Source: Trypanosoma brucei (lineage: Eukaryota). Taken from it: a stretch of 64,000 nt of DNA. This document shows positions 4,975 through 50,684 of this stretch, piece by piece. Both the position numbers and the translations under genes were made by a program. The first letter of the stretch is position 1; each line of letters begins with the position of its first letter. Where the stretch lies: assembly GCA_000002445.1 (NCBI GenBank), contig CH464491.1, positions 1,824,001 through 1,888,000 of the forward strand, in the 5' to 3' direction. The notes under the pieces are model-generated. The model had not been told where the DNA came from. It saw only the letters and a list, made by a program, of their open reading frames with translations, and did no database searches.

Positions 4975-6540
4975 CTACAATTTTCGGAAGTACTCGGTAA
5001 GTAAGGCAGGGCCGAAGCCTGTTGCCCCATTGCTGTTAAACACTGGGTACGCCAAATCCACGTGGATGTGCGCGCCAGTGAATTTCGGGCTCAAATGGGT
5101 AGTAATGAAGTAACCAGCACATGAAACACCAGCATTGTCACGTCTCTCCATCAAGTTGGTCATGTCGGCATGATTGCTCTTGAACTCGGGCTCGTGATAT
5201 TCCGGGCAGTAAAGCACCGGGAAGCATGTCTCCCCTGACTCCCGTCCCGCCCGCAACATTGCAGCTTCAGCCCCCTCCTCGTTGACGTACAATCCCGCAT
5301 GGTGGCGACCAGTGGCAATACCTTGTGCTCCCGTAAGAGTTGCCATATCGATGACAACATCTGGGGTAAAGGACAACTCATTCGTCGCGTGGAAAACACC
5401 ATCGCCGAGCACAATGCGGCCCTCTGCGTCAGTGTTGATTACCTCCACCGTCTTGCCAGACTTCATAACGATGATGTCGTCGTTTCTGTAGCTCTTAGGA
5501 CCAATGGCGTTCTCCGCGAGGCACAATGTGCAACTGAGCTGCACTGGCTGCTGAAGCCGCACAGCTGTCAGAAAACCGCAAAACACGGCTGCCGCTCCAC
5601 CCATATCATGCTTCATCAATTTCATGTAGTCGGCCGGCTTGAGCGCGAGACCGCCACAATCATACACGATGCCCTTGCCGACGAGGGACACCTTTTTGAC
5701 GGGAGTGCCCTTCGGTGTGTACAACAGCGTTACGAGACGAGGAGCCTCAAAAGCAGCCTTTCCCACACTGTATATGCCTCCGTAGCCGCGCTCACACAAA
5801 TCGTCACCACAAATGACGTCCACATCGAAGCCAAGCGCCTTTGCGTAGCCTTGCGCAATTTCTGTGAAGGTTGCAGTGGTTAGCAGGTTGGGAGGCGCGT
5901 CAACAAGACGCTGGCAGAGTTGCGTCGAAGTGGCAACCGCCTCCAAGTCCTTTGGCGGGATCGCGGGCGGCTCCGGGAACACCACCTGCAACCGGCTGAC
6001 CTTACCACTGTTGTAAGCCGCCGCTGCCGCACCATCCTTTGCGGAGAAGTTGTGCTTTCCACAGCGTGCTACAGCAGCAGCGATGGGAAGGACAGCATTG
6101 GAAAGCACAAAGACATCCACCGTTGCATTAGGCTCTTTAACTTCGTCCAATGCAGCAGTTACAAGTGCAGTCACAACATCCGGTCGGGCAGGGCAGTTGT
6201 TGCGAGATGCCTTCGTGGGCACCTCACCAACGACAACGCGCACGAACTTTGAGCCTGCCGCATTCGCAAGTCCCTCCACCAAAACGCCGTACGTCCCACC
6301 TTCCTTCACCCGCTCAATAGCTTCAGCAACAGCGGGATTGTAAAATGGTAAACGCTGGACGGCGGGGTCACGGAGTTGCTTGTGAGTTCCAACAAGAACA
6401 GCGAGTCCTGAGGACAGTACACCCTTCTGGTTGCTTTCGTAGGCGGTGACATCGGTGAAGCAAACATTGGTTTTGTATTCGACGCACGACTGGACGAACG
6501 CAGAAAGCTCTTTTGCTTCGGCCTTGGGTAAAGTAGGCAT
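4975..6540 (-). CDS. Leucyl aminopeptidase, peptidase family M17 (cytosolic LAP)
   Basis: A 521 aa ORF carrying the M17 signature NTDAEGRL (VINTDAEGRIVLGDGV) together with the conserved VGKGIVYDCGG and DMGGAA motifs. The call is based on family knowledge. Confidence 0.9.
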   Translation of the reverse strand: MPTLPKAEAKELSAFVQSCVEYKTNVCFTDVTAYESNQKGVLSSGLAVLVGTHKQLRDPAVQRLPFYNPAVAEAIERVKEGGTYGVLVEGLANAAGSKFVRVVVGEVPTKASRNNCPARPDVVTALVTAALDEVKEPNATVDVFVLSNAVLPIAAAVARCGKHNFSAKDGAAAAAYNSGKVSRLQVVFPEPPAIPPKDLEAVATSTQLCQRLVDAPPNLLTTATFTEIAQGYAKALGFDVDVICGDDLCERGYGGIYSVGKAAFEAPRLVTLLYTPKGTPVKKVSLVGKGIVYDCGGLALKPADYMKLMKHDMGGAAAVFCGFLTAVRLQQPVQLSCTLCLAENAIGPKSYRNDDIIVMKSGKTVEVINTDAEGRIVLGDGVFHATNELSFTPDVVIDMATLTGAQGIATGRHHAGLYVNEEGAEAAMLRAGRESGETCFPVLYCPEYHEPEFKSNHADMTNLMERRDNAGVSCAGYFITTHLSPKFTGAHIHVDLAYPVFNSNGATGFGPALLTEYFRKL

Positions 6541-6769
6541 GGGACTTTCCTTCTTATTTATTGACTTGTTTTGCGTGCGTTTCTTTCCTCCCTCCCTTTG
6601 TGCTTCAGGTCCCCTTATGCACCTTATCTCTTATTGTTGTTGCTACACTCCCTTTTTAACAAATTCCTGCTAACGTAAGTCCCAAGCAAGAAATATTGCA
6701 CTTCTGTCAACTGATATGTACTTCGGTTGTTAGCAACTCAATGGCGATATACCGGTGAAGTTCGAACGT

Positions 6770-6835
6770 ACTCCTTTCAAAAAAAAAAGTCGAGATTTGC
6801 TTTTCCATGGCAAGAAGAAAAAAAAGGAGAAAATA
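6770..6835 (-). promoter_or_regulatory. Putative polypyrimidine tract plus AG trans-splice acceptor region for the leucyl aminopeptidase mRNA (minus strand)
   Basis: About 240-290 nt upstream of the ATG (6540) the minus strand reads ...ctctattttctcctttttttttcttcttgcc...tttttttttgaaaggag. This is a pyrimidine tract followed by AG dinucleotides, the canonical kinetoplastid SL-addition signal. The exact acceptor was not determined. Confidence 0.35.
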
Positions 6836-7526
6836 GAGGCGCAGGAGTGACCGCATATTGGTATCAAGGGTGTGAGAGCCTTGGTATCTGTCAAGTTTAA
6901 GAATTTTTTTGCCTTTCAAAAAAAAAAAAAGACAAAGACAAAGTTACCCCATTTCTTCCGTCAACGCAACAGTGGAAGCGTAGAAACAGAGAAAGGGACA
7001 AAGAAACATTAAAAACAGCAGTAAGGGTGATAATGATAATAATAATAATAATAAAAGTACGACCTGTCTCCTGATTTAGCACTTGTTTGGCCCGTAAATT
7101 TTATCCATCCTGCGGGCGACTTGTCATTACCGCCTCCCCCCCCCCCGCCCCTCCTCAGGTAATAATCCGCTGATTCGCTTCTTCAACTTACCTTTCCTTT
7201 ACCCTTACTTTCCACATCTTCTTTTTCCCCCTTTTTAAAAAAATCTCTCTTACTTTTCCTTTTTCCCTTTTCTGTTCCTTTTGATTCAATTTTCCCCAAT
7301 AGTTCTCTTCTTCTCTCTCCTTACATTATTTTTCTTCCTTAGGTTTCATTTTTGACATATTTCCCCCATTCCCAGCACCCATACATCTACAACCCCCTCC
7401 AAATGTTGCAACAGCAAAACGGAATAGGGAAGAAGGTGGAGACAGGACAGGAGAAAAGAAAAAAAGAAAGAAAGAACCAACGTCTAATTCGGATATTCAA
7501 TTAGAGAAGAGGGAATAAACTTACGC

Positions 7527-7552
7527 ATATATATATATATATATATATATAT
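7527..7552. repeat. (AT)13 microsatellite
   Basis: Read directly from the sequence. Confidence 0.95.
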
Positions 7553-10047
7553 TTCCCCTCCACCCTTTCAACTGTAGGATATATATAAAAAAAAGTAATT
7601 GATTGCTAATGCTACTATCATTATTATTAGAAAAAATGACAATAATAGTGATAATAGCAATAACAATTATTATAATAACAGGAATAGCAGTTACATATAT
7701 ATAGTTTTAATATAGATATAAACAGCACGAAACGCCGTGAGTAGTAGTAGTAGTAGTATTCCACCGGCAACTTGTGTAAGTCCAAGTGCACGTGCAGAAA
7801 AGTGAGTGCATATTTTTTTTTTAATTAGAAGTGCTTGGTTGTTTGTTTGTTATTAATGATAATTGAATGGAAAGGGGGAGAAATGAATTTAAATTAGCGT
7901 AGATATTTTTATGTTCGTAAAATAAAGGAAGAAAAAAAACAGTAATTGTGGTCACAAAGACAGCAACTGTGGCAGAATAATATGGAAGGTCTAAATGAAC
8001 GAGAAAAAAAAAACACCGCTGGAGTATCAGAAGAATGTCCCGACACCTTCAGAAACAAAAAACAAAAGTGGGTGAAAAATGATTTCTCATCATTATCAAT
8101 ATATATATATAATACATACATGTTTATATGCATGTATGTATATCATACCCCTACGGGGTCAAAAAATGATTGTAAACATAGCTTAAAACGTTTCAACTGG
8201 ATAAAGAAAGTAAATAACATAAGCGGCGACAACAACTAAAAAGAGAAAAAAAAGGTTATGAAACATGCAAAGAAAAAATAGTAGTAACAATAACAATAAT
8301 AAGAGTAATAGTAATGGCAGTAGTAACAATAATAATAAAAATAAGATAGCGAAATTGGCAGAAGCAACACTTCCTTCCACCCACCACAGACGCCACGCAA
8401 AGAAACAAACAAACAAACTAACACGTAAACGCAAACATGCACGCATATACATATATACATATGTGCATACATTCATTCCTTTTTGTAGCCAATCCCTCAT
8501 TCAATATCTCTGAAAGCTGCAATAATCATTGTAGTAATTCTTATCACAACAGTTCCTGCTTATGTTCCTGTTGTTGTTTTAACAGAAGGGGACAAGAAAA
8601 GGAAAAGGAGAAGCGAATGGGAAACCCTTTTGCCCTTAACCCCTTTTCGTTTCTTCCCCTTTTTTGTTTTGTTTTGTCTTGTTGTTTTTCATTTTTTATT
8701 TTTTTTTCTTTTTGTGATTCTCCCTTAGCTTTTCACTTCTGGACACCCACAGCGCCACGCCTCGATGAGCCAAATCGCTCAGTTGGAGCGGGTAAACGAA
8801 ACAAAACAAGCAAACAAATACAGAGTAAGCAGTAATTTAAAAAAGGGGCTCCAAACAGGCACAAGTATGAACTGTACGCTCACACGCGCAGCAGTTCATC
8901 TCTCACACATGTTAACAAACAAGACATGCTATCACCGAAAATAAGCAGAAATAAGCAGAGTGAAAACAAAAAAAACGAAATAAACGAAATAAAAACAAAA
9001 CGCAACCGGACGCATGCATATACAAACAAAAATGTATACACGTACATACGCACGTGCATACATAAATATATATGTAATTTTTGTGATATATTTATAACAT
9101 ATATATATATAGATAGATAGATAAATTTATCAAGAGGTGTGAAAGGGACAAAAAGAGAGAATTGGAAGCATATGTCATCAACTACATATCATCTGTCACC
9201 GGCCGACACAACAAGCCGCAGTAAACACAACAGCGGGGAAAGGAAAATACACAAATGCGTATACAAGTAAAATAATCAAATTATATACCTGCATTTGTAC
9301 GTGTTTGTGTTTACATCTTTCATTTCCCTCTTCTTGTATTTTCTTTTCTTTTCTTCTCTTCTTTCATTACTTTCTTATTTCATTTTTCAGCCCATTCAAA
9401 ACCAATTTTGGAAATTTTAAGTGAATGGGCTTTCCTCTTTTTCTTTTTCGTTTTTTTTTGTTTTCAGCACAAAATTTCCTTCTTTCCCCCCTCCGTCCTG
9501 CTGCCGCTGTCGCCCCTTTCAGCTTCAAACTCATTGTTACAAAAAGCAACATCCCGCTTCTTTTCGCCATGATATGTGTTGTAGGCATTCAAATACGGTA
9601 CATTTTTCTTTCATACACTCATCTCCTCACCTGCAAACTTTTCCCTATTATTTTTGTTTTGTTTTTGTTTTATTCTTCTTCCTTCCTTCCTTTCTTCCTT
9701 TTCCCCCTTCATCTCTCTCTCTCTCCTTATCCACCCCATTTTTTTTCTGTTTCCATCATCACTACTTTTCATTATATTTTATTAAAATAAAATATAACGC
9801 AGATCTTACTCATTTCCTCTTTTGTTTCTTTCCCCTTCCTTTTGTATTCTTTTTTTTTTCATGAACTTCTCCACAGCTCTTTTGTCATCTCCCTTCTTTG
9901 TTCTTTTTGTTTTATTTTTGAGACATGACCGAATAATCTCCGCTGAATGAAAGGAGGAGAGGGGGAAAAAAAAAACTCACACGCTCCATCATGCATTCAA
10001 CGTTTTCCTTTTCTTTTTTTTCGTTTCTTCTTTTTTTTTTTAATTTA

Positions 10048-10049
<2 letters not shown>

Positions 10050-10078
<29 letters not shown>
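10050..10078. repeat. (TA)14 microsatellite, preceded by T10
   Basis: Read directly from the sequence. Confidence 0.95.
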
Positions 10079-10080
<2 letters not shown>

Positions 10081-11924
10081 CTTTTTTATTACCAATTAGA
10101 ACTATTATTAATATCATTATTTTGCTCCCTTTCTCTTCATCTTTTTTTCTTTTTTCTTCTTCCTTCTTTTTCTTAATGTCCTCCGAGAGGGGGGGGGGTA
10201 AAAAAAAAATGACAAAAAAAAACACACGCCAAATGAAAGAAGAAGAAGAAGGGAAAAAAAAAAAACAGACGCATGCGCATGTTTTTGTTAAGATTCAAAA
10301 ACAATTCTACACCTTCTATTGCGCCGCCACGACACCCTCACCACAACCACCACCATATTTTGAAAAATAAAAGACAAAAACCAAAAAAGAAAAAGGGAGA
10401 AAAAACAAAAGCTCTGAGAAAATCATTAAAGTCACACGTGGAAAGTTAACAAAAATAATAATATAAGTAAGAAAAAGAAGGAAGGAAAGGAGAAAAAGAA
10501 AGGCGGCATATGATACGAAACATCGATTACATTTATTTTATAAAATACCCACTTTGGTAGGAGGGGAGAAAAAATATATATATACACACACACCTCCGCT
10601 AAATTCTCTCTATTTCTTCTTTTCTTTTTTCTTTTCCGTGGGTGTGTTGTTGTTTTTGCTTTTTCTCTTTTTTTTGAAAAAAAATTACGTTTTTTTTTTT
10701 CCACGGGGATCAAATTCTTTCCTTCCGTCAAATCTCCCACACCCGCCCTTGTCAAATTTTTATTTATTTATTTATTTTTCTTTCATTTTGTAATTCCTTC
10801 CTTCCTTCTTTCGTTTCTTTTTCTTTTTCTCTTTTCTTTTGAAAACTTTACTTTTTATTTCCTTTCACCCCGAGTTGGTTGTAAAATTGTTGTTGGTGGT
10901 GGGTGGGAGCAGAAAAGCAGCAAAATGAGGGGGAAAAACAAAAAAAAAGGTGGTGAGCGCATGAGCAAAATAAGACGTGAAATAAAAAAACAAAAGTATT
11001 TATTTAGTATTTATTTTATTTTATCTTTTTTCACTCACCCTCCCAAATTGTATTTGCTACGCTCTCATCAGATACCCGTTACAACAACCACAAAAAGAAG
11101 AAAAAAGGAAAAAAAGAAAAGGAAAAAAAAAGAATGACGAAGCAAGCAGAACGACAACAACAACAATAACGGTGGTATAAATTTAGAAGGCAAAAGTCAA
11201 AAGAGTACAATAATAATATTATTAGTAACAGTAAAGAAAGCGAGTTCGTTTATTAGCTTTTTTAAAACAAAAAAAACAAAAAAAAAGCGTTTTGAACTTA
11301 TTTACATCACGTTCTGGAATAATCTCTTTTTCCTCCTTCCTCTTTCCTTTCTCACGATCCTCGAACCGAACAATAGCCGAACGACGCCACTTTTTTATAT
11401 TTTCTTTCTCTTTTCGCGGATAGAAGTTTGAACGCATAATAACCGTAAAAAAAAAAAAAAATCATGCATGTATTCATATTCTTACCGTCTATTTATATCT
11501 CTTTATACCTCTCCCTTTTTTATTCTCTCTTTCTTTCTCTTTCTCTCTCTTACACACACACACACACATATACATACACATACACATATAGACAGTTTCT
11601 AGATTTAATTGAGAGCACCAGTGACGGAAATGTAAACTTAATATTGTAGGGAAAAAGAAAAAAGGAAACAAAAAAGGACACAAAACACATTCTCCAGTGC
11701 TCTGCAAAAAAGAAAAAAGAAATTAACGGATACAAGAGGGTGTGCAAAGGGGATGGGGAAAAAAAAAGGAAATATATAATAAAACATATAAGAAAACATG
11801 TTCATATATAAAACATACACGTATATCTCTGTGTATATTTTATTTTCATGCATTATATTCCCCATTCATTCATTATTTGTTTTAGTTTCCTCCCCCTCCC
11901 CTTTTTTTATTTTATTTTATTCCG

Positions 11925-11977
11925 TGTGTGTGCATGCGTGTGTGTGTGCATGCGTGTGTGTGTGCATGCGTGTGCGT
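11925..11977. repeat. Three tandem copies of a 16-bp unit GTGTGTGTGCATGCGT
   Basis: The three units are exact. Confidence 0.9.
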
Positions 11978-13114
11978 ATATCTGAATTTGTGGTTTTATA
12001 CTCTCTTCCTTTCCATTATTTCATTTGTACGCAATCAAAAATGTTTCAACAATCGCACATGTTTCATCTTATACGTATTCCTTTTCTTTTCCAGTTTCTT
12101 TACTCATTTAGTTATCCATCCACTTATTCATTCATTATTGATGTGTACATTTTATATGGAGCTTCCTTTAGGGTAATGGAGGGAAACACGTCATTTCCCC
12201 TTTTTTTCTTTTTTTTTAAAAAAAACAAAACAAAACAAAAAGACATAAACATGAAAGCATTAAAACATGTAAAAAAGGGGGAAAAAAAAGCAAAATGAGT
12301 GCTTGGAAGGATGTAAGGAAAATGTGTAAGTTTGTGGGGTGGGGGGTGGGGTGGGGGGGAAAAAAAGACGCGCAAGTGGGTGCACAATAATAAATACTGG
12401 TAAGAAGAAAAAAGAAAAAGAAATAAAAGTCAACAAATATATATATATATATAATTACATATAATTATATATATAATGCAGAGAGTAAACTTAATGCACC
12501 TCACTTGCTTCCCCCTTTCCAGTTAATGCTGCACGCACTTCCTTCACAGCACCGCCACCCCACCTCCTCCTCCTCCCCCCCTCCCCCTTTTCTTTAAAAA
12601 AAGATAAAAACTTTAGATTTTTTTTTTTATTCGTCTCTTTTCTTTATTCCAAAACGGGATATTTTTGATTTGTCAGGCACATCATCCGCAAAATATTTTC
12701 ATCACATGTCTTCTCTTCTCTCTTTTGTTTTTATTTTTTATTTTTTATTTTCTTCTTTTCTTTTCATTTCGTTCATTCACATTAACTTCCCGCCACTGTT
12801 TCTGGAGACGCGTTATGAAAAAAAGAGTTTGAAACCACCGACACAAACAAACACAGCGCACACACACGCAGAAAAGAAAAGAAAACATCCACCAGGTAAA
12901 TAAATAAACAAAATGAATGAATGAAAGCAATAAATGAAAGCAATAAATAAAAAGGGAAGTGAGAGAAATGATGGAGAGAAAGCAAAAAAAAAAAAAGAAG
13001 AGAAAGATATAAATGTGTAAGAACGAATGCATTTGAGTTTCATAAGCATGCCAAAAGGAACTCAAGACGCCGGCTTTTACCTCTTTTTTTTAATTATTAT
13101 TATTATTACACATG

Positions 13115-13172
13115 CACACACACACACACACACCACACACGAGCACACGAATTATATATATATATATATATA
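13115..13172. repeat. Compound microsatellite (CA)n followed by (TA)n
   Basis: cacacacacacacacaccacacac ... atatatatatatatatata. Confidence 0.9.
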
Positions 13173-16100
13173 ATTCATGAACAAGAAAGAAAAAAAAGAA
13201 AGAATTGGAAGAGGAAGAGGAAGAAGAAGAAGAAGCATAAAAGGAATAAAAGATAAAACGAAAAAAAAAGAGATGTAAATAACTACTATAACCATAATGG
13301 AAAAGCAGTATAATGAAATTATATCACCAGTAAAATTATAATAATATTATCATTATTATTAATAACAATCAACAACAAAAATAATGTAAAGACCTTTTTA
13401 AAAAAAGGAAAAGGAAAGGAAAAGGGGGAAAAAACGAGAAACGGCGCGTGTCAAAGCATAATAGAAACAAACGAAACCGATTGCCAAAGGATAGATGTAT
13501 AAGCACACAATAACAAAAAGTACCAATCACACATATGAAAAAAGTAAAAAAAACAAAGGCTCTGTAAAAACCCGATCAAAACGCCCAAAAGAAAAAAAGA
13601 AAACAACTGAAATATAGCCCATTAATCAAGATGAAGAGTATAAGGTGAAGGGGGGACAAAAAAAAAACAACGATCAACCAACAAGAAAGGGAGAGTAAAA
13701 AAAAAAAAAAGGCAAAAAAAGGAATAAGCAAAAACGGACTTGCGCTTGTGGATGATTCCCTTTCTTTTATGAGTATAACGTGAAAAGTATATATGAAAGC
13801 ATCCTTTGGATAATACGCATCCGTTAAACAACAAAACAGAAAAAGAAAAAGAAAAAAAATGCACTCTTTCAACGTGGTACAACACAGAGACCAAAAAAAG
13901 AAAACGTAATCACTCAACCCCGCAAGCACCTCTGAAAGCAAAACAAAAATGAGTTTTAATTCGCTTCCACCAACGTTTTCCTCTTTTTTTCTGTCTCTTT
14001 TCTTTTCTCCTTTTTTTTTTCTTTATGTCTCCTCTTGTTGTTTTGATCAAACCCCTTCAGAGTAGCGCTCATTCAATCATTTTTTTCTTTCCTTTTTTTT
14101 TCGGTTCTTGTTTAACCTCCTCCTGCACAATTTTTTTCTTTTTTGCGGTGCCCCTTTAGTGTCACCCAAGCCATCGAGAAAACATAAAAAGAAAAGCATA
14201 AATAAACGTAAAACACAAAAAAAAAAACAAAAAAGAAAAGAAAAGACAATACAACAAGAAAAACAAGACAATCAATTGGATGAAAAAAGAAAAAGAAAAA
14301 GGGAGGGGGGAAAACACAGAAGCAACACGACACCAAGAAAAAAAAAAGACCAAAAAAAAACTAAGCAGCAGGAATGCGGCTCAGTAACGAAAATATATAA
14401 ATGAAAAAGGAAACCAAGAAAAAAAAAAAGAAGGAAGAGGAGGAGGGATGTGGGGAAGGAGTATTAATATACAGCGGTGCAAAATATTTTAGCCTCCTCC
14501 GTAATCGCCACCACCGCCACCGCCATCATAATTTTCACATCCTCCTCCGAGTCACAAGTGTGCGCGGGATGAACCTCGCAAAAAGAAGAAAAAACATAAA
14601 CGACAAAAAAAAAAAAAATAGAGAATTGTAAAATGCCGCTTTCATCGCCTCCATTTTTGGTGCCATCATTTCGAACCTGCACCTTACCAACGTCTCTTCC
14701 CTGGAAAATAAACTTTTTTTATTTTGAGTTTTTAATCATGTCACGTTTCCTCTCATTTCTTTCCGTCACATCATACATTCGAGATAATATCTCAAAATGT
14801 CTCTCCTTTTTTTTTTACTTCTACAGGTCAGCAGCGGCAAGTTGAAAGGAAACGGGAAAAGCATCACATAAAAAAAAAACACAACGACCTCTACCTCCCG
14901 CTAAATATCAATAGCTTCCGTTCCCTTTTTCATTCTTTATTTTCTCTTTTACATTTTTGTTTCTTCGTGTTCCTTCTTCTACCGTCCCCCTCCCTCACTA
15001 ACTCATTTATTCATTCATTATGCCTCATTTCAGCTGCACTCGTATGGAATGCACGTTAAAAAAAAAAGGATCAGAGAAAGGAAATATTGAACGCTGTCAC
15101 AGAGTCTTCATGTCCATCCACAGTGATACGAACGAAGGTGTTCAAAAAACAAAAAACAAAAACAAAAACAAGGGCAGTTGGGGCAACGCTGCGGTCGCAA
15201 ACGTAAAGAGTAAACAAACACGTCAGACAGTGACAGTAAGCACAACAAACAATCAAACAAAGGCTCGACAGCTAAGAAGACAACGCGAGAGGAGGAAAAT
15301 CAGCAAACAAAGGGGGGAAACATATAGAAAAGTGGGTAAAGTACGAAATTGAGTGGGGCTACAAACAACAAAAGACGTATCGGATGGCGTAGGAATAATA
15401 GTGATACAAAAAAGAAAAAGAAGAAAAGAGGGAGTAACATCGGAATGCAGAAATAAAGAAGGAGTAACACGTACTCCCCCCAACTTTCTCACTGGAGTCA
15501 CTCTTCCACGTGGTTATTTTCATTTCCCTCTAAATCCACCTCTTCTCCTCCTCCACTCCGCAAGGGAAGACAAGTTCCATATATTTTACAGATATTTTCC
15601 TACGAAACGCAAAAAAAAAACCTTCCGCTCCTTTCCCTGACCCCCCCCCAAAAGGTGCAACGCGTTATACTTCGCTTCCCTTCCATTCATATACGTACAC
15701 ATATAAATATTCGATTAAATAAACATATACAAATGTGGATATATGAGCATATATATGTATATGAATGTTCGTATTCAATTGTATGCGTGTATTTTGCCGC
15801 GGTCTGCGCCAAATGGGAAGGAGGAAAAAAATAAAAGCAAAAAACAAAAACAAACAGCACAAAATGAAATAAGATAATACGAACAGAAAAAAGAACGCGG
15901 GAAGACACCGTTCCGCTGGTCAAGGCAGGGTTAGGCCCCCTTATTTACCTCAACATCTTTCGACGGACATTATTTACGTTCATTTCCAACTATTACCTTC
16001 ACGTCAAAAGGAAACTGGTGTCCACTACATTTGTTGCATCCCCATCCTTTTCACCTTTTTTTCTGCCATTGATTCGTTTAACCTCGTTCCCCATCCGGGG

Positions 16101-16376
16101 AGGTCGCACAACTCGAGGCATACGTCAGATGTTCTGTTTATTTCCCCCTCACTTCTCTTCTTTCCCCTTCTCTGCACAAAAACAAGGGAACGGGAGAAGC
16201 ACTTCACCCATTTATTATCCCTCTTATTGGTTTAAAGTCGAAACAAAACAACGTCCCGCTGGCTCCTCCACTCCACGACATGATGCCCCACACGGGGAAT
16301 CCGATGAAAACAAAACGGAACACAACACCAAAGCAAAAGGAGCAAAATAGCGTTCACTCCGGTCAGGGGTTCGGTC

Positions 16377-17969
16377 TCAAGCACTTATGCCACACCTCCC
16401 AAACTCAGCGGCGGTGGGCACTGCAGTACGGCTACGTCGATCTACCGTCATCATGGGTTCACTGCAATCGAAAGAATCGGGAACAGTTGGCGGTCTGGGA
16501 GGAGGGTTCAATTCACCGCGGCTTAGCTCGACGATGAGCGGCATGCACGGCAGCCCATCAGTCTCTGAGTGGCGTGTTTGCTGCGGCAGATTGCGGACGC
16601 GCTCGCAGTACTTTCTTAAGTGAGAATATTGCTCCCTGTCGGCAGCGTACCAGAAACCGTGTCTGTCCATGAGTACGCGGCAGCGCACTTGGTAGATAAG
16701 TGTCCATATGTCTTTCGTCCTCACACGTGCAATAAACGATGTCTCGGAGCGCCACTCAACGCTTTCAGCGACCGCCATGCCATCACCACACACCACCTCT
16801 AGAACGCGATTGAGAACAACAACGGCGCGCTGACGTAGCTCGCACGGAAACATCTGAAAAAAGACAAGCAGGGTCCGCCCCGCATCCTCCTTCGAGACGG
16901 TGTCGGTTTGCCCGTAGCGGGAAATTGTATTCGAGATGTTGTAAGAGTGGTACAAGCAAAATCCCTGAAGTGTTCCATGAACGTTGACGCTGGAGCGTTG
17001 GTGGCCGGCTGCTGCTTTGCGCCCACTCTGCTGCACCTGGTGTGAGTCGTAACTGGGTGGACTCCCCACACCTGCAGCAGCGCAGGCAGCGGCGAGGGGC
17101 GAGCTATTCATTGGTGTGCTGGGTTGCAGGAGCCCATTCCCCAACGGGCTTGAAGAAGATACAGACACGGGGAAGCACGTGACGGTGGGGGAAAAGGGTG
17201 CAGCAGAGTTGGGGCCCGGAGTCACCGCAGTGAGCTGATCGCCCATCACGGTGCCAAACGTTTGCTGCGCTGGCGTCATTGGCACATATGTCATGCCCCC
17301 ACAAACATCCATGGAAAGCTGCGGCTGCGCGACAACGTAGTGTGGAACGCCACCGGGAGCGGGGCAAGAACCCTGAACATACAGCGTATGAGGAGTGTTA
17401 GGCTGGGTAACCATTACAAAGTTGCTATTCCCCTGTGATGCCACGAAGGTGGAAAGTCCCACTGGCAGCGAAGGTGGGGTTGATCGCTGAAACGACACGC
17501 CATTACCCTCACTCACGCCCGGTGAAATGACGGGTGTGCTTATAGACAGGAACGGCGAAGCGGTCATCGCACCGGCGTACGGGGAATACGTCATGGAACT
17601 TTTAGTGGGGGAACTTGCAGAAGAACCCCCAAACGAAGGCGGTACTGAGTGAACATTTGACTCCATCAGCGGCGAATATCCACGGGTCTTCATGGAGAGA
17701 GGATCGCTTCCATCCTGCAGCATGTTGTGGCAAACTTCATCGCACCCAGGTTGTCGAGCTGTGCTTATGAAAAGATGCGGCGGAGCCCTTCGCATGCCAG
17801 GGGCGGCGTTGTCGTTTCTCATATCAGAGGGACCGGTCAGCATTCGATCGGTGATTGATTCGGAGGGTGGCCCTGAAAGCCATACGCCATGAGAGATCCA
17901 CCCATCACAGGGCTGGCCAGCAGCGTTGTCGAGCGAATGCTCGGTTAAGGCTGGGTTTCTGGGATCCAT
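16377..17969 (-). CDS. Hypothetical protein, 530 aa, with a large Ser/Pro/Thr/Gly/Met-rich low-complexity middle and a structured N-terminal domain
   Basis: A long minus-strand ORF. About 300 residues are compositionally biased. The N-terminal ~150 aa (RTLLVFFQMFPCELRQRAVVVLNRVLEVV...CRVLMDRHGFWYAAD) look globular. I recognised no named domain. Confidence 0.5.
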   Translation of the reverse strand: MDPRNPALTEHSLDNAAGQPCDGWISHGVWLSGPPSESITDRMLTGPSDMRNDNAAPGMRRAPPHLFISTARQPGCDEVCHNMLQDGSDPLSMKTRGYSPLMESNVHSVPPSFGGSSASSPTKSSMTYSPYAGAMTASPFLSISTPVISPGVSEGNGVSFQRSTPPSLPVGLSTFVASQGNSNFVMVTQPNTPHTLYVQGSCPAPGGVPHYVVAQPQLSMDVCGGMTYVPMTPAQQTFGTVMGDQLTAVTPGPNSAAPFSPTVTCFPVSVSSSSPLGNGLLQPSTPMNSSPLAAACAAAGVGSPPSYDSHQVQQSGRKAAAGHQRSSVNVHGTLQGFCLYHSYNISNTISRYGQTDTVSKEDAGRTLLVFFQMFPCELRQRAVVVLNRVLEVVCGDGMAVAESVEWRSETSFIARVRTKDIWTLIYQVRCRVLMDRHGFWYAADREQYSHLRKYCERVRNLPQQTRHSETDGLPCMPLIVELSRGELNPPPRPPTVPDSFDCSEPMMTVDRRSRTAVPTAAEFGRCGISA

Positions 17970-26753: not shown

Positions 26754-27582
26754 TAAATAAATAAAGTTCGTATTTCCTATCGTCAAAACCACAATCTAAA
26801 CGATGATCCTCGAACTGACGCATTCAACTCACTCACCGTCATGGCTATTTTATTAAAGAGTAAAGTCCTAATCAGTAGTCCTCTTTTTTTCGTAATGGCA
26901 GTTTGCCGATAGAATAATTAAGTCTTGACGTTTAAACTGAAAAGACGTCTAACAAAGTTTCAAAAGGACAATATATATTTATATTCGCTTTTGGTTGATT
27001 TCGATAATAATCACTTTAATACCAACACGGACCATTGTGCCCGGTAATGGCTGTATCCTTTACATCACCACGATTTTTATCATATGTAAGAATTTTGCAA
27101 CAAAAAGTACAGGGAGTATTACCCGTACAAAGTTATGGGGTCATACACAAAATTTTCCACTGACGAACTTGTCCCAGTTAAGTTTCAGTAAGCCGCATGA
27201 GTGCCTAAACCCTCCCTGTTGCCACTATCACACAGACTTAATCATACGAAGCAGAAGTGAGGTAAGTTTTCTGTGATGTTGTGTTTACCTTTTCCCCATT
27301 CCCTCTTATCTCCTTCCTGTGATATGCCAGTCAGAGAACAAAAGAGGGGCTTCAAAGACAACCAGGCGGTTTTGTTACCACAGATTTCTTCCACAATGAC
27401 AAAACACGTTTAAAGTCTTTGAGAGTAGCGACGCACGCCCGCTCACGACCAAATACAAAAAACTTTCGATAATGGCCACGGTTCTTACCCTGTATTGCAT
27501 CGGAAGCTGGCAATAAAAGTACCTTCCTTAACTTTCTGACGGTTACGTAGGCCACCATCAACACTGGGGAGAAAGAGGAACC

Positions 27583-27615
27583 ACATACACAGACACACAC
27601 ACACACATACACACA
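27583..27615. repeat. Imperfect (CA)n microsatellite
   Basis: ccacatacacagacacacacacacacatacacaca. Confidence 0.9.
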
Positions 27616-30600
27616 AGTCACATGTATGTTTTTTCTCCTCATAGAGAATTGCGGCCAGTTTGTTAGGAAGATCGCATCAGCAAACAACATAAGCGTATCG
27701 CCTTCCATGAACGCTGAAGAGAACACGCGCGGTCCACAGATAATGAGTACAGCGCTACCGCCCGCGTACAAAATATACCCCACACCTCCTGTAGTCGCAC
27801 ACGTAGACGCGAACAAGTCCCGAACATCATCACCTGTGCTTTGCCGGTTCCCAGCGCGAGACCGCAACACCCACCAAGGCGCGGCAACCGCCAACGCAAC
27901 GAACCAGAAGCCGAATTGCCGCTGAAAGCGACGCTCCCGAACGCGCCCGGCGCCGGCCGTCAGCAGTGGCATGACAGTTTCCGGTCCACGGAAGCCGGCC
28001 CCAACCCCATCCACGGGTTCCGGATTTCCGCCTCCCACCGGAGGAAACACGGCAGGCTTAACCATCACCTGCTCTTTTTTTAATCACGTGGTGACGTGCG
28101 CGCCAAAGAACATGGGGTCGACCAGGGAAAACAGTAAACTGTGGAAGGGTGGGGAAGCTTGTAGTCATCCGCGCCCCTGGAAAGCATAACTGCCCACTGG
28201 CCGCTAAACCCAGAGCGAGACCACCGTGTTCGGGGGCCAACAAGAGGGGCGCTACTCGGGAAAGGGGGAATGCACCGCCGCCCCCACGTCGATGCTGGTA
28301 CAGAAAGAGGTGAAGAACCGGGTGACGCCATGCAGCGCCGCAATGCAGGAAGGGACCGTCCCGCATGCGCGCACCCGCTTGACAACGACCGCGTCGGCAT
28401 TGGCCAGAGCGTTGGGGAAACGCTGCGGTAACAACCCCCGCCAACCAGGCGCGAGGTCAAAGAATAAACAAATAGCGGAAGCCCGAAACCACCGAAAGAC
28501 AAAGCCTCAGCCGGTGCTACCCCGCGGTGACAGACTGCATGCTGTCTAAGTGAGCTCCGGGCCGAGGGAAAACTGAGCGAACTGCGACATGGAGCGGGAG
28601 CACCTACCATCAAATGGCCCCGAGAAATAAACGGTCTACACATTCGAAAGGGTTAGGGCTCCCGAGCGTGCATTTCAAAACCAAGCAGCCATTAACACCA
28701 CAAGGCCGATCACCCCAAAGGAGGTTGGCAAATGTTTCGTCCCACCACGGTGAGATTGTCAGGAAACAGCCCCATTTACAGGAAGGGCGCCCCCACACCC
28801 AGTGCGGCCACGGGTGGCGCGGTCTTGTGGGACCTAACCTTCGATGGGGAGTCGCCAGCCCAAGACATTTCAAATTAAATAGAACACTCCACCGCAGATT
28901 CCGGGGTGTGCAGCCGCATTCCGCTGCAATATTTAAACTGCGGCGGTGGTTGCTCGCCGTCGCGCTTCAGTGAGGTGCTAAGAACGAAAACGAGAAAGGA
29001 TACCTTTTCCCACCAATTCTATCCGGCCCCCATGATATCGGCCGCTCGTCCGATATTTCTTCACCTTAGACACATTTTTCGAGGGGCTGTGTTCTCAGGC
29101 CTCGATTGGCGGCGCCCTTCGTGGAAACACCAGACCAACGGAGCGACTACCGCGGTACCGCTACGGGCGCGGATGGCAATTTGTTTGTCTCCTTGCGCCC
29201 CATCCCCCACCCCATCCTTTAAGAGGCTGAAAGAAATCGGGTTCAACGCCGGAGTTCACCGACAAGTTGCGGCCCCTTCGTTGTAGGAGCGCTGGTGTTG
29301 TAATGCTCTGAGATTTCCAAGCATTTGCTTAGGTTTTTGGGTTAGTCCCGCCCCGCTGGACGTGCACTCCGAGAGGGGGTGCCTTCCCGAAAGCGTGTTG
29401 CGGAAAGCAACCCTTTTCGCACGCCACGGGCCTTGCCCCTCGCGCTTGAGCACTGCGTCTTAACTGGAAAGGTTCCTTCAACCTTGCATGCGGCCCCACT
29501 CACCGTGGAGACATCGATTGACATTTTTGGGGGTGGGTTGGTGACGTTACGGGGGAGAGAGTCTGACCACGAAAAAAAAACTCACGGAGCCCGGTGCGAA
29601 TTACGAGCGGGTCTGGAGGCGTTGTTTCCGGGCTGTCACCCATCCACGAGTGGACGCGGCAACATAAGCGCACGACTGGGATCTACAGAGGTGTGATTTG
29701 GGAATGTGGGCAGTACCGCCGACGCCCCTTGCTCGATGGAACCCAGCTGGACGAGGAGCAACCGCAACCCGAGAATGCTGCAACAAAAACCTTGGTCCAA
29801 ACATTTCCTATGCGAACGATTCCCTACGACCTTTGCTGCAGTTGCCGTAGCGACGGGAACCAACAGGGAGAAGCTGGGTCCTGGCAGCCGAGTGCCCCCA
29901 CCGAAACATTGAAAACGGAAGGTCCCACCGAGGCGGACGTCCCAACTTTAAGCACACAATTCGTTGTGTCTTAAGGGACCTGTCGGTGGCGCCGCACAGC
30001 GGGTGCCGACAAAGGGCTTTGAAAGACGACCCGTGATTCACACGGGGGTACGGCAGCACAGGCGGAACGGCTTTTGATGCGCGTGAAAGCGAGTACGAAG
30101 CAATGGTACAGAAGGTTTTCATCACGCGGATGGCACTTCGAGCGACCGGCCGCTGGCAAACCACCGGAAACGCTTTGCGGAAACTGGGGTTGATAAACGG
30201 AACAAAGTGCAATGAGGATAACCATCTAAGGAATTCAACCTGCACTGTAGTCGAAAGGGTGGTGTGGAAGAGGGAAGCAGCAATGGCGCCCCGTGCAGGT
30301 TGCCTGCTGTTGTTGGTTAAAGTTGCTGTTTCACGCTTTTGGAGGAGCGAGCCAGCTGCGAGAGCAGCGCTAGGCAGGCATCAGCGCACTGACGGAATCG
30401 CGGGAAAGGACCTTCACACAAAAACCAGTGGAATAGAGGGGTTGTAGTACGTTGACTCGGTTAACGGCACGGGCTCGGGAGGAGGAAGTTCCTTGCACAA
30501 CCGTCATGGAGAATGAGTAAATCATTTTTACCCAGGGGCGACGGAAGCGTCGCCCAGCTGGCGTGGAACACTTAGGTTACACCACATTGTGGGTGAAGGG

Positions 30601-31756
30601 TTCGTTGGGAATAGGCACACATGTGCGAAACTGACGATGTCAAAATTCACACAGTTTGGATGAAGTTGTTTGATAGCATTCTTCTGCGACAGCGGACAAA
30701 ACCCGGTCAAATGCCCTATGGAATGCGGCGGAGTGCGGCGTCGATTGCGCCCGTTGGGATTAAAGACTTCCACTTGGCCCCTCCACGTGGATATCACTGA
30801 GCACCAACCGCGCCGGACGCAGAGACCCGGTAAACCTAAAAACGTTTCCTCTTACTGCGCCGCAAGGCGCCTTCGTTCTCTCCACAAAATTCCCCAGGGT
30901 CTGCAGTGGTTCCGGAGAACGCGGGGAAGCGCCCTATCCTGTTTATCCGAAAAACAACGAAACCCTGTACCTTTCTTTCAGCGTTGTTCCCACGTCTTCC
31001 CCGTGGTTAACGGTCCAGCCGGGGAACATACGTAAAAAGTTGTGCCCAACTTGCTTAACTTGGCTACAAATGTGAAGCACTTGCACCCCTTACGGAAAGA
31101 GTGTGCCACTTGATCCGCCTTCACTACTACGCGTCTTTCAACCGGGAAGCAAAAGTAGAGAAGAAAGCAAGCATTTAAGCGTCAGTGACAAGCAACACTC
31201 ATCTTACAACCCTCGCCCTGTGCGGGGGTGGCATTTATAACAATGATCCGCGTTCCGTGCGACGCCTTCCAAGAGACAACTTCAATGTTTCAGTCTTCCT
31301 GACCTCACGGCGTAGTGTGAAGCAGGAGGCAAGAGGGTAAAACAAACCCCCCGCTTCACGTTCCACCGTCCCTATCGAAACATTTATGAAACAATACGAA
31401 GAAAGGGATTGCTGTTACTTAGACGAACTTTGGTCCATAGGTTTTGCTCCCACAAACTTATGGATCCAAAAAAAAAATTGCTTCGTTTAAGGGAGATGGA
31501 CGCGAAAAACAGACGGAGCCGACAGTCACAACAACACAAACATGACCAAAGCACCGTGATGAGAGCGTTCGCCGCAGCGGGCTCACACGTCCCTCGCTAC
31601 ACCACTGAGGCTATTATGTTGTCAAATATGACGTGCAGGGAACAACCGCAGGCGAACTGGGGCCTCCATTGCCCACGTAGTTCCAAAGGTGCTTCAAGTT
31701 GCCCACAAAGAGGGGAGGATGTGACGGAAAACGCGGGGTTCACACCTATTTTATGC

Positions 31757-48800: not shown

Positions 48801-48989
48801 GGAATAACTACAGAGTAACCTCTTCGTTAAGAGTTGAAATAATCCACTTGTTTCTTCGGATTCTTTCGTAGCATCATATTTTCTGATGGTTGGTAACATT
48901 AAAAGATACCGGTAAAAATTGCTCCTGTGCGGTGCTCCGTGATCTCCAGCGGCTTGGGGGACGAAGGACCTGGCATTTGCGTTCAACAT
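45816..48989 (-). CDS. Cgm1-like bifunctional mRNA capping enzyme (putative guanylyltransferase region plus C-terminal cap guanine-N7 methyltransferase)
   Basis: The C-terminus has VLEICCGGYLLRKWIRNKTARYIGFDL, which matches the cap N7-MTase AdoMet motif VLDLGCGKGGDLxKW. Upstream segments resemble nucleotidyltransferase motifs IV-VI (GLVFVPH; ...VLKRSDDGSHWWELLRGRGPD ~ WxxxRxRxD). The 1057 aa length and domain order fit the trypanosomatid Cgm1 described in the literature. A Cys/His cluster sits between the two domains. Confidence 0.55.
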   Translation of the reverse strand: MLNANARSFVPQAAGDHGAPHRSNFYRYLLMLPTIRKYDATKESEETSGLFQLLTKRLLCSYSHGGPGDDALQVFTTTFFSNVKNAGYCSGTEAPTGILLSRSILSLTGTVSDICAISAAPGFLVRVEVPKECGAEVAPQLKAAWDDYFWTLREDPRVLAVGYVGSFCGTSSSRRYAGTHRHYFFVSIIIPQPEDVHFFQTALLGINFHPLRITEVNAVASFACSMQVPLTVVVSIGDDASKKLLSDGKPDRSFFVSLYPCDVSRTLSSLKEYETHFLSLLKEQNDWPKPTVVHVNINIDYSHHVGTLVCPVFDMLAFVGDLCDDTAASVSGVCVSDTTLRKEFGVTLCTEADGWFLNATLNYVLAAGRSFDMSSTCFGYVPQHFRRSITFAQYEYAHKIAEKWLPVNCVPVPLNRMTFAAAAEEFSKYPYYVRSKTVGANVLLITNSEGDVFCVDVKTGSISALPDYFRGLGGRAKNSVFSAVVASSYRSYLDYVIIVEDILSFEEADVRELPFPERWFYVEKCLLDNYASRPHTSPNRVAIVRTIYTVSTQAERLLRNPPAGHPTLGLVFVPHVTNCKEKDTSVYSWIPTSSTTAVFIVGDVENVHPESGDVKRAWLLVADSGKNTMSYNNEYVDYIWDSAPELRSGSVIECVLKRSDDGSHWWELLRGRGPDMGYQPDTFDIVERLVHVPGLTHKEMLWLLDAAKYRCGRCHNVSDVGRMNVKHMAYWCKKCWSETGHGDCLYCGRFCVMGKNDTLNQHFYCDNCWGTFSATNLKAEIGYLAPPPENASFATHVLTRCASLLIDIITPKVATNDVLEICCGGYLLRKWIRNKTARYIGFDLKSSVVDAASELISSLRHEMTEMSFYDVICADVFSANFWSHHLTKIHPRQFHVITAFAGFHHAFGTEYTAMRLIESVANALIPGGVFIGCFFDVEPLFAKGSFGNGVFAIEWAADFLPRVGNHFLLSVQKGHFKKVNVVPVDFLVAVGRECGLVVVPKACSTFQGILDNDRGFNKTISSGEKDYLLAMRAIAFRKEGNAQAGIVPTQNVDLNRD

Positions 48990-50611: not shown

Positions 50612-50682
50612 GCGCCGTTGGTCTAGTGGCATGATGGTACCCTCCCAAGGTATTGACCCGGGTTCGATTCCCGGACGGCGCA
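50612..50682 (+). tRNA. tRNA-Gly (anticodon CCC)
   Basis: A 71-nt cloverleaf: acceptor GCGCCGT/ACGGCGC, D-arm with AGTGG, anticodon stem GTACC/GGTAT with loop CTCCCAA (anticodon CCC), T-arm CCGGG-TTCGATT-CCCGG, discriminator A. It is near-identical in pattern to eukaryotic tRNA-Gly-CCC (GCGCCGCTGGTGTAGTGG...GACCCGGGTTCGATTCCCGG.CGGCGCA). CCA is not encoded. Confidence 0.9.
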
Positions 50683-50684
50683 TC

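What the first reader, a model, noticed from the sequence alone, without database searches (positions are those of the whole stretch)
6541..16376. A 9.8 kb gene-free, microsatellite-laden tract inside a co-directional gene array
Every flanking gene is on the minus strand, yet almost 10 kb separates the aminopeptidase gene from the next gene at 16377. No ORF exceeds 166 aa, and those present translate to poly-L/F/K.

The tract is built from alternating pyrimidine-rich blocks (e.g. 9290-10200, ~900 bp of nearly pure C/T on the plus strand) and purine-rich blocks (13150-13930, 14160-14460). It also has long A/T homopolymers and many (TA)n, (CA)n and (GT)n arrays, including a 16-bp unit repeated three times.

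Typical trypanosomatid intergenic spacers are about 0.5-2 kb. A spacer this long inside a polycistronic unit could be a centromere-associated or replication-origin region, an assembly-recalcitrant region, a locus for long non-coding or small RNAs, or the remains of genes that decayed. The plus-strand pyrimidine blocks would be splice-acceptor-like signals for plus-strand (antisense to the array) transcripts, yet no plus-strand genes exist.
Basis: seen in the sequence. Interest (0 to 1): 0.6.

Follow-up and report, generated by a model that had tools for sequence, protein, structure and literature searches.

The report
Giant untranslated spacer after HYP1 gene
The 9.8 kb "empty" stretch is real, and is most likely the very long untranslated tail of the messenger RNA of HYP1, a Trypanosoma brucei regulator of parasite development, so it is an extreme case of a known feature rather than a centromere, a replication origin or an assembly error.

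Summary
Window 6541-16376 is a 9,836-bp gene-free, AT-rich, low-complexity tract inside a minus-strand gene array of T. brucei TREU927 chromosome 11.

It lies between Tb927.11.6600 (HYP1, upstream in transcription) and the M17 aminopeptidase Tb927.11.6590. HYP1 is a quorum-sensing/stumpy-formation regulator with an mRNA-repressing, stress-granule-associated product.

- The tract is colinear and of the same length in T. b. gambiense (9,818 bp) and T. equiperdum (9,785 bp), so it is not an assembly artefact.
- It has no long-period tandem repeats, Rfam families, tRNAs, Pfam relics or ORFs conserved between species.
- Long poly(U) runs are biased to the minus (sense) strand, as in the neighbouring spacers.
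- A canonical polypyrimidine tract plus AG, with a spliced-leader junction in a public contig, places the aminopeptidase splice site at 6799.
- An unusually long gene-free spacer follows the HYP1 orthologue in T. vivax (9.3 kb), T. cruzi (5.8 kb), T. melophagium (6.0 kb) and Phytomonas (3.7 kb).

Best reading: a roughly 9 kb regulatory 3'UTR of HYP1, possibly also giving processed non-coding RNAs. No transcript data could be consulted.

Non-salivarian trypanosomes carry a second HYP1 paralogue inside the equivalent interval. T. brucei shows no detectable remnant of it.

Interest is modest.

The parts
16377..17969 (-). CDS of Tb927.11.6600 (HYP1), 530 aa. It is the gene immediately upstream of the tract in the direction of transcription.
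   Evidence: Exact protein match to EAN79622/XP_828734. Tb927.11.6600 is 530 aa, on the minus strand, and 1593 bp long in a supplementary table. Gene-order count to the capping enzyme Tb927.11.6720 at 45816-48989 agrees.
6800..16376 (-). Non-coding tract. Proposed to be the 3'UTR of HYP1 mRNA plus the short unprocessed spacer before the next splice site. It may also yield processed non-coding RNAs from internal signals.
   Evidence: No conserved ORF, Pfam relic, Rfam family or tRNA. Sense-strand poly(U) bias. Long spacer conserved downstream of HYP1 orthologues. The transcript ends themselves were not observed.
6812..6833 (-). 22-nt polypyrimidine tract (TTTTCTCCTTTTTTTTCTTCTT) serving the aminopeptidase trans-splice site.
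   Evidence: The first AG downstream of it is the acceptor at 6801-6800.
6800..6801 (-). AG splice acceptor of the aminopeptidase mRNA.
   Evidence: Logan contig L014 carries the last 11 nt of the spliced leader (GTACTATATTG) joined to CAAATCTCGAC, which starts at window 6799.
6541..6799 (-). 5'UTR of the aminopeptidase mRNA (259 nt).
   Evidence: Three Logan contigs carrying the CDS begin at window 6742 to about 6800.
4975..6540 (-). CDS of the M17 leucyl aminopeptidase Tb927.11.6590 (PDB 5NSK/4EFD).
   Evidence: The CDS length of 1566 nt matches the supplementary table.
9290..10200 (+). Block that is 71.5% pyrimidine on the plus strand, so purine-rich in the minus-strand transcript. It lies in the 9001-11000 segment, where the poly(U) polarity is balanced instead of sense-biased.
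13150..14460 (-). Two blocks that are purine-rich on the plus strand, so pyrimidine- and U-rich in the transcript. They hold many tracts of 18-35 nt.
9949..11134 (-). Cluster of five strong sense-strand polypyrimidine tracts (23-43 nt), 5.2-6.4 kb downstream of the HYP1 stop codon. These are candidate internal processing sites. They sit at the distance where the HYP1b paralogue begins in T. melophagium and T. cruzi.
   Evidence: compared. This is a positional coincidence only.
11924..11974 (+). 16-bp unit GTGTGTGTGCATGCGT repeated 3.2 times.

Best explanation
The tract is the transcribed, non-coding region downstream of HYP1 (Tb927.11.6600) within a minus-strand RNA polymerase II polycistron.

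Transcription runs from high to low coordinates. In trypanosomes the poly(A) site of an mRNA is set by the trans-splicing signal of the next gene (established knowledge, restated in PMC9380746). The only mapped downstream signal is the aminopeptidase polypyrimidine tract and AG at 6833-6800. The default product is therefore a HYP1 mRNA with a 3'UTR of about 9 kb, ending some 100-400 nt upstream of that tract, at roughly window 6,950-7,300. The last 259 nt (6541-6799) are the aminopeptidase 5'UTR.

The U-rich, pyrimidine-rich and microsatellite sequence is the usual substance of long trypanosome 3'UTRs. It would act as a binding platform for RNA-binding proteins that control processing, export, stability and translation. 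That would give HYP1 its strong stage regulation.

The 22 sense-strand polypyrimidine tracts of 18 nt or more could also be used as internal splice/polyadenylation sites. They would then yield shorter HYP1 mRNAs plus trans-spliced non-coding RNAs.

Shown: gene identities, absence of genes, strand polarity, the downstream splice site, and conservation of a long spacer in relatives. Inferred: that the tract is one continuous 3'UTR, and that it is regulatory.
For: Gene identities
- The window is T. brucei TREU927 chromosome 11, and the flanking genes are Tb927.11.6590 and Tb927.11.6600.

What is known about HYP1
- It is a validated stumpy-induction gene that represses tethered mRNAs and localises to stress granules.
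- Its mRNA was reported 856-fold higher in bloodstream forms than in salivary-gland parasites. It is listed beside RBP3, DRBD12 and ZC3H20. DRBD12 mRNA is 8.4 kb, and RBP10 has a 7.3-8.5 kb 3'UTR.
- Long trypanosome 3'UTRs are described as rich in low-complexity sequence and internal polypyrimidine tracts, and as often under-annotated.

The tract itself
- Sense-strand U runs of 8 or more number 36, against 15 on the antisense strand. Windows of 12 U number 15 against 0. The other spacers of the array show the same polarity, 20 against 6.
- The aminopeptidase splice site is at 6799, with a canonical polypyrimidine tract and a spliced-leader junction.
- It holds no gene, RNA family or domain relic.

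Relatives
- The spacer after the HYP1 orthologue is 5-40 times longer than the three spacers upstream of it in the same locus (146-1,062 bp), in every Trypanosoma and Phytomonas genome examined. T. vivax has 9,262 bp, T. cruzi 5,824, T. melophagium 5,991 and Phytomonas about 3,700.
- The tract is colinear in three Trypanozoon assemblies, and the differences are mostly microsatellite indels.
Against: - No RNA-seq, spliced-leader or poly(A) mapping could be consulted. The length of the HYP1 mRNA was not found in any accessible paper or supplement.
- A 9 kb 3'UTR would be at the extreme of what is reported for T. brucei.
- The 9001-11000 segment lacks the sense-strand poly(U) bias.
- Purine-rich and pyrimidine-rich runs are equally frequent overall.
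- There is no alignable sequence between species, so constraint is seen only in length. A distant kinetoplastid contig (L016) has only 968 nt between the two genes.
- Guegan et al. report lncRNA genes next to 18 of 43 quorum-sensing genes. Part of the tract may therefore be separate transcripts.
Confidence: 0.6

Rival explanations
1. The tract contains one or more independent, trans-spliced and polyadenylated long non-coding RNA genes. They would be cut out of the polycistronic precursor at internal polypyrimidine-AG signals, and HYP1 would have a shorter 3'UTR. Such an RNA might act on HYP1 or on the quorum-sensing pathway, as grumpy does next to RBP7.
For: There are 22 sense-strand polypyrimidine tracts of 18 nt or more, including a cluster 5.2-6.4 kb downstream of the stop codon. 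[quoted passage not shown] DRBD18 depletion releases trans-spliced RNAs made only of 3'UTR sequence from other long 3'UTRs.
Against: Internal polypyrimidine tracts are normal in long 3'UTRs and are usually masked. No conserved sequence or structure was found.
Confidence: 0.22
2. The tract includes the eroded remains of a second HYP1-family gene (HYP1b). This gene lies between HYP1 and the aminopeptidase in non-salivarian trypanosomes and was lost in the salivarian lineage.
For: T. cruzi, T. melophagium and T. rangeli have a paralogue at this position. A distant kinetoplastid scaffold also has a tandem pair. The distance from the HYP1 stop to the aminopeptidase start is 9,698 bp in T. melophagium including the paralogue, against 9,836 bp in T. 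brucei and 9,262 bp in T. vivax. The odd-polarity segment 9001-11000 lies where the paralogue would be.
Against: tblastn at E up to 10, a family HMM run with --max on six frames, and Pfam on stop-free fragments all find nothing in the tract, although the control (the HYP1 tail) is found. There is no GC bump. T. vivax, Phytomonas and contig L016 also have a single copy. A gain in non-salivarian trypanosomes is therefore at least as parsimonious as a loss. Even if true, it would explain at most about 1.6 kb of the 9.8 kb.
Confidence: 0.12
3. The tract is a head-to-tail boundary between two polycistronic units, with termination after HYP1 and re-initiation before the aminopeptidase. It would then possibly also be an ORC1/CDC6 site or replication origin.
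For: Such internal boundaries exist in T. brucei and are wide, gene-poor and rich in GT- and G-runs (own knowledge of Siegel 2009 and Wedel 2017, not re-read here). The tract has G and C runs and GT/CA arrays on both strands.
Against: All genes on both sides are co-directional. No sequence feature specific to start regions could be shown. The window's only Pol III gene, a common marker of such boundaries, is elsewhere (tRNA-Gly at 50612-50682). The sense-strand poly(U) polarity continues across most of the tract.
Confidence: 0.08
4. The tract is a centromere-associated region.
For: It is AT-rich (65% AT) and repeat-laden.
Against: No tandem repeat has a period above 23 bp, there is no array, and there are no retroelement-like repeats. 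The tract is 9.8 kb, it lies inside a co-directional array, and its sequence is unique and colinear in three assemblies. Known T. brucei centromeres are tens of kb of roughly 30-177-bp repeat arrays at strand-switch regions (own knowledge).
Confidence: 0.02
5. The tract is an assembly artefact, either a collapse or a mis-join.
For: Low-complexity sequence is hard to assemble. Short-read assemblies of relatives break here: the T. grayi contig ends 242 nt after the HYP1 stop, and the T. congolense aminopeptidase is on an unplaced contig.
Against: TREU927, DAL972 and T. equiperdum OVI give 9,836, 9,818 and 9,785 bp. They are colinear at 94-98.6% identity, with no N runs. T. vivax gives 9,262 bp.
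Confidence: 0.01

Closest known systems
Very long regulatory 3'UTRs of T. brucei developmental regulators (RBP10, 7.3-8.5 kb; DRBD12 mRNA, 8.4 kb)
   Same: It lies directly downstream of the CDS of a stage-regulated post-transcriptional regulator. It is gene-free, AT-rich and low-complexity, with many internal polypyrimidine tracts. It ends at the next gene's trans-splice signal.
   Different: The transcript was not observed here. At about 9 kb it would be as long as, or longer than, the published examples. No regulatory element was mapped. One 2-kb segment has atypical strand composition.
grumpy and other intergenic lncRNAs next to quorum-sensing genes (Guegan et al. 2022, PMC9200285)
   Same: It is a non-coding interval flanking a stumpy-induction gene, it has lower GC than coding sequence, and it holds ordinary splice and poly(A) motifs.
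   Different: No lncRNA is documented here in the sources I could read. No snoRNA-like element was found.
T. brucei centromeric repeat regions
   Same: AT-richness only.
   Different: There are no long-period tandem arrays, the tract is not at a strand switch, and it is ten times smaller.
Syntenic HYP1a-HYP1b tandem pair of T. cruzi, T. melophagium and T. rangeli
   Same: The neighbours are the same (MCC-beta, two hypothetical genes, HYP1, then the M17 aminopeptidase) and the overall interval is similar.
   Different: T. brucei and T. vivax have no second copy and no detectable remnant.

Membership tests
Long trypanosomatid 3'UTR / inter-CDS processing region | Lies directly downstream of a CDS, on the same strand, inside a polycistronic array | tested here: met
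   HYP1 CDS at 16377-17969 (-). All neighbouring genes are on the minus strand.
Long trypanosomatid 3'UTR / inter-CDS processing region | Contains no protein-coding or structured RNA gene | tested here: met
Long trypanosomatid 3'UTR / inter-CDS processing region | Bounded downstream by the polypyrimidine tract and AG trans-splice signal of the next gene | tested here: met
   Polypyrimidine tract at 6812-6833, AG at 6800-6801, and a spliced-leader junction in L014.
Long trypanosomatid 3'UTR / inter-CDS processing region | Sense-strand U-rich, low-complexity composition | tested here: met
   U runs of 8 or more: 36 sense against 15 antisense. U12 windows: 15 against 0. The exception is 9001-11000.
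Long trypanosomatid 3'UTR / inter-CDS processing region | Continuous mRNA coverage from the CDS to a mapped poly(A) site | not testable with these tools
   No RNA-seq is available. Supplements searched had no UTR entry for Tb927.11.6600.
T. brucei centromere | Arrays of tens of kb of AT-rich tandem repeats (units of about 30-177 bp) | tested here: not met
   The largest TRF period is 23, with 2 copies. The repeat families found are only low-complexity runs.
T. brucei centromere | Kinetochore (KKT) occupancy or topoisomerase-II cleavage | not testable with these tools
   Needs ChIP-seq or etoposide mapping.
Replication origin / ORC1-CDC6 site | Located at a boundary of a transcription unit, with an MFA-seq peak | not testable with these tools
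   Flanking genes are co-directional. A head-to-tail boundary cannot be excluded from sequence alone.
Pseudogene / decayed gene | Residual similarity to a functional homologue | tested here: not met
   tblastn at E up to 10, family HMM with --max, and Pfam on stop-free fragments. Only the HYP1 tail used as control is found.
Pseudogene / decayed gene | Syntenic position of a gene present in relatives | tested here: inconclusive
   HYP1b is present in T. cruzi, T. melophagium and T. rangeli. It is absent in T. vivax, Phytomonas and L016. The direction of change is unresolved.
Small-RNA cluster (snoRNA, tRNA, other Rfam families) | A match to a covariance model, or a tRNA prediction | tested here: not met
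   No gathering-score hit in the tract. Sub-threshold hits are microsatellite look-alikes of miRNA models.
Intergenic lncRNA gene | A discrete spliced-leader-capped, polyadenylated transcript without coding potential | not testable with these tools
   Candidate signals exist. The published lncRNA tables are not held.

The most novel reading that the evidence does not exclude
The interval downstream of HYP1 is under selection for its length or architecture rather than its sequence. It is 9.3-9.8 kb in T. vivax and T. brucei. The distance from the HYP1a stop to the HYP1b stop is 7,585 bp in T. cruzi and 7,608 bp in T. melophagium, with no alignable sequence between them. In the salivarian lineage the former paralogue slot would now produce a trans-spliced non-coding RNA, or a 3'UTR extension, that tunes HYP1 and hence quorum-sensing differentiation.
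Probability: 0.1. Interest if true: 0.6.

Novelty: new member of a known kind. Interest (0 to 1): 0.3.

Why it matters
HYP1 is one of the few validated effectors of the density-sensing pathway that turns dividing bloodstream trypanosomes into transmissible stumpy forms. If its mRNA carries a 3'UTR of about 9 kb, it belongs with RBP10 and DRBD12 among regulators controlled through exceptionally long UTRs. The tract would then be the place to look for the elements and proteins that set HYP1 levels.

For genome annotation, the result warns against reading such tracts as centromeres, origins or gaps. It also explains why T. b. gambiense carries four spurious small gene models there.

The comparison between species also shows that the HYP1 family is a tandem pair in non-salivarian trypanosomes but a single gene in T. 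brucei and T. vivax. I did not find this described in the papers I could reach.

Tried and rejected
- Rfam at gathering score on the whole window, and at E up to 1 on the tract. Only microsatellite-driven sub-threshold miRNA-model hits appeared.
- ARAGORN found no tRNA in the tract.
- Repeat search for long-period or dispersed repeats found only low-complexity families.
- Search for a HYP1b remnant with tblastn, a family HMM (--max) on six frames, and Pfam on concatenated sense-strand stop-free fragments. All were negative with a positive control.
- Antisense-strand fragments were not scanned against Pfam.
- blastn and tblastx between the spacers of T. brucei, T. vivax, T. cruzi, T. melophagium and T. 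rangeli gave no colinear conservation, only low-complexity hits.
- Exact look-up of ten tract ORFs in the protein collection, hoping to reach transcript contigs. None is on record.
- Literature search for the HYP1 UTR length or lncRNA annotation.
- Counts of known 3'UTR motifs. The RBP10 motif UAUUUUUU is at expectation (4 against 3.9). UAU/AUU repeats are enriched, but that reflects microsatellites.
- A second family search with a domain profile found no further T. brucei member, but the tool's candidate filter is not exhaustive. It missed the T. vivax orthologue and even the query itself.

Full report
**What the window is**

Five flanking ORFs were looked up by exact sequence. Four of them are proteins of Trypanosoma brucei brucei TREU927 on a 5.26-Mb record, EAN79620-EAN79625.

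- The ORF at 4975-6540 (-) is the M17 aminopeptidase crystallised as 5NSK/4EFD. Its 1566-nt CDS identifies it as Tb927.11.6590, not the other chromosome-11 M17 gene, which is 1698 nt.
- The ORF at 16377-17969 (-) is a 530-aa 'hypothetical conserved' protein. A supplementary table gives Tb927.11.6600 / Tb427tmp.02.4450 as 530 aa, minus strand and 1593 bp.
- Counting genes upward, the 13th gene from it is the capping enzyme/N7-methyltransferase at 45816-48989. That fits Tb927.11.6720.

Tb927.11.6600 is HYP1. It is a validated hit of the genome-wide screen for stumpy-inducing (quorum-sensing) genes. It is also a repressor when tethered to mRNA and a stress-granule protein.

**The observation**

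It is correct.
- The gap is 9,836 bp. No ORF exceeds 166 aa, and the ORFs translate to low-complexity strings.
- GC is 0.31-0.40 across the tract, against about 0.5 around it.
- Compared with the 18 other inter-ORF gaps of the window, the tract has 4 times more homopolymers, 6 times more dinucleotide arrays and about 10 times more long purine or pyrimidine runs. Those gaps have a median near 0.9 kb and a maximum of 4.8 kb.
- TRF confirms the (TA)n, (CA)n and (GT)n arrays and the 16-bp x3.2 unit at 11924-11974.
- 'Nearly pure C/T' is overstated, because 9290-10200 is 71.5% pyrimidine. The alternation of purine- and pyrimidine-rich blocks is still far beyond shuffled expectation and beyond the rest of the window.

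**Not an artefact**

T. b. gambiense DAL972 and T. equiperdum OVI carry the same interval, at 9,818 and 9,785 bp. Both are colinear with the window at 94-98.6% identity, and most differences are indels, that is, microsatellite length changes.

The four gene models that DAL972 places in the interval are 99-171 aa. Three of the four are antisense and none has a Pfam hit. The 166-aa and nine other tract ORFs of TREU927 are not in the 15-billion-protein collection.

**What is not there**

- There is no Rfam family at gathering score anywhere in the tract. The sub-threshold hits are microsatellites resembling miRNA models.
- There is no tRNA.
- No tandem repeat has a period above 23 bp, and no dispersed repeat is anything other than a low-complexity run. 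The sequence hallmark of T. brucei centromeres is therefore absent.
- No Pfam domain is found in sense-strand stop-free fragments of 50 aa or more.
- tblastx shows no coding conservation between the equivalent intervals of four species.

**Orientation and boundaries**

Transcription of the array runs from high to low coordinates, so the tract begins at the HYP1 stop codon.

Long U runs are biased to this sense strand. Runs of 8 or more number 36 against 15, and windows of 12 U number 15 against 0. The other spacers of the array show the same polarity, 20 against 6. The plus-strand blocks are mixed C/T, and the strongest U tracts are on the minus strand. One segment, 9001-11000, is an exception with balanced polarity.

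At the downstream end, a 22-nt polypyrimidine tract (6812-6833) is followed by its first AG at 6801-6800. Three public Logan contigs that encode the aminopeptidase start at window 6742 to about 6800. One of them (L014) carries the last 11 nt of the spliced leader joined to the base at 6799. The aminopeptidase 5'UTR is therefore 259 nt, and everything from 6800 to 16376 belongs to whatever is made downstream of HYP1.

**Comparison with relatives**

Gene order around HYP1 is conserved: MCC-beta, two hypothetical genes, HYP1, then the M17 aminopeptidase.

| Genome | Arrangement after the HYP1 orthologue |
|---|---|
| T. vivax | 9,262 gene-free bp, then the aminopeptidase |
| T. cruzi | 5,824 gene-free bp, then a second HYP1-family gene (HYP1b) |
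| T. melophagium | 5,991 gene-free bp, then HYP1b, then 2.1 kb, then the aminopeptidase (9,698 bp in all) |
| T. rangeli | HYP1b lies 1.4 kb before the aminopeptidase |
| Phytomonas | single copy, then about 3.7 kb at GC 0.32 |
| Unidentified kinetoplastid contig L016 | single copy, then only 968 nt |
| Metagenome scaffold L009 | two tandem HYP1-like genes plus one other gene |

Two conclusions follow. First, a spacer far longer than its neighbours travels with HYP1 throughout Trypanosoma and into Phytomonas, although no sequence is alignable. The three spacers upstream of HYP1 in the same locus are only 146-1,062 bp. Second, the T. brucei tract corresponds to 'spacer + HYP1b + spacer' of non-salivarian trypanosomes.

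I searched for a HYP1b relic with tblastn at E up to 10 and with a family HMM run without filters on six frames. Only the HYP1 tail included as a control was found. The same holds for T. vivax. Single-copy genomes include an outgroup, so a gain in non-salivarian trypanosomes is at least as parsimonious as a loss. 'Decayed gene' therefore remains possible but unsupported, and it could account for about 1.6 kb at most.

**Most likely mechanism**

In trypanosomes the 3' end of an mRNA is set by the next used trans-splice signal. Long 3'UTRs full of low-complexity sequence and masked internal polypyrimidine tracts are documented for developmental regulators. Examples are RBP10 (7.3-8.5 kb) and DRBD12 (8.4-kb mRNA). 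DRBD18 and ZC3H28 preferentially bind such UTRs, and annotated UTRs are often too short.

HYP1 mRNA is strongly stage-regulated. It was reported 856-fold higher in bloodstream forms than in salivary-gland parasites, about 2-fold up in stumpy forms in one replicate, and higher in bloodstream than in procyclic forms.

I therefore read the tract as the HYP1 3'UTR of about 9 kb. Its 22 sense-strand polypyrimidine tracts of 18 nt or more are potential alternative processing sites, which could also release non-coding RNAs. Guegan et al. found lncRNA genes beside 18 of the 43 quorum-sensing genes, but I could not read the list.

Confidence is 0.6 that most of the tract is HYP1 3'UTR. Confidence is about 0.85 that it is an ordinary transcribed, non-coding, post-transcriptionally acting region rather than a chromosomal element.

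**Rivals**

- A head-to-tail transcription-unit boundary or origin cannot be excluded from sequence alone, but nothing specific supports it.
- The centromere reading fails the repeat criterion.
- The artefact reading is refuted.

**Novelty and interest**

The kind of feature is known. This instance would be among the longest, it sits on a gene of real interest, and I did not find it described in the accessible literature. The comparative finding of a HYP1 tandem pair in one trypanosome lineage and a single gene in another, with conserved interval lengths despite unalignable sequence, is a small new observation. Overall interest is modest (0.3).

Noticed in passing
L001 10001-11782 and 17607-19367; L002 10001-11794 and 17786-19402; L011 1611-3386; window 16377-17969: HYP1 is a tandem pair (a and b) in T. 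cruzi, T. melophagium and T. rangeli, but a single gene in T. brucei, T. vivax and Phytomonas. The C-terminal domains of a and b are 71-79% identical within a species, whereas the two b copies are only 51% identical between species. This suggests gene conversion. The N-terminal halves are unrelated.
   Followed up: partly
[not shown]
   Followed up: partly
L001 and L002: The distance from the HYP1a stop to the HYP1b stop is 7,585 bp in T. cruzi and 7,608 bp in T. melophagium, although the intervening roughly 6 kb shows no alignable sequence.
   Followed up: no
window 50612-50682 (+): A tRNA-Gly(CCC) lies on the plus strand inside the otherwise minus-strand array. It overlaps the 5' end of the ORF at 50096-50683 and is next to a 4.8-kb gap without large ORFs (50684-55459). 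This may be an internal transcription-unit boundary.
   Followed up: no
window 28644-31756, and 27352-28068 / 28080-28643: A 3.1-kb interval has coding-like GC (0.54-0.58) but no ORF of 150 aa or more. Beside it, two adjacent same-strand ORFs are separated by only 11 nt. This may be a pseudogene or a frameshifted gene.
   Followed up: no
window 9001-11000: This is the only part of the tract where long T and A runs are balanced between strands (7 against 6). It contains the plus-strand pyrimidine block and lies at the distance from HYP1 where HYP1b sits in other species. It may be an old inversion or a different origin of the sequence.
   Followed up: partly
window 12334-12359 (+): The G-rich run GTGGGGTGGGGG x2.1 on the plus strand (antisense to transcription) has G-quadruplex potential.
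   Followed up: no
L003 (T. grayi) end; P0036 (T. congolense aminopeptidase): Assemblies of relatives break in this interval. The T. grayi contig ends 242 nt after the HYP1 stop, and the T. congolense IL3000 aminopeptidase is on an unplaced contig. This fits a long low-complexity spacer there too.
   Followed up: no
L004 13363-18500: T. b. gambiense DAL972 annotates four small proteins (99-171 aa, three of them antisense, no Pfam hit) inside the equivalent tract. They are almost certainly spurious models.
   Followed up: yes
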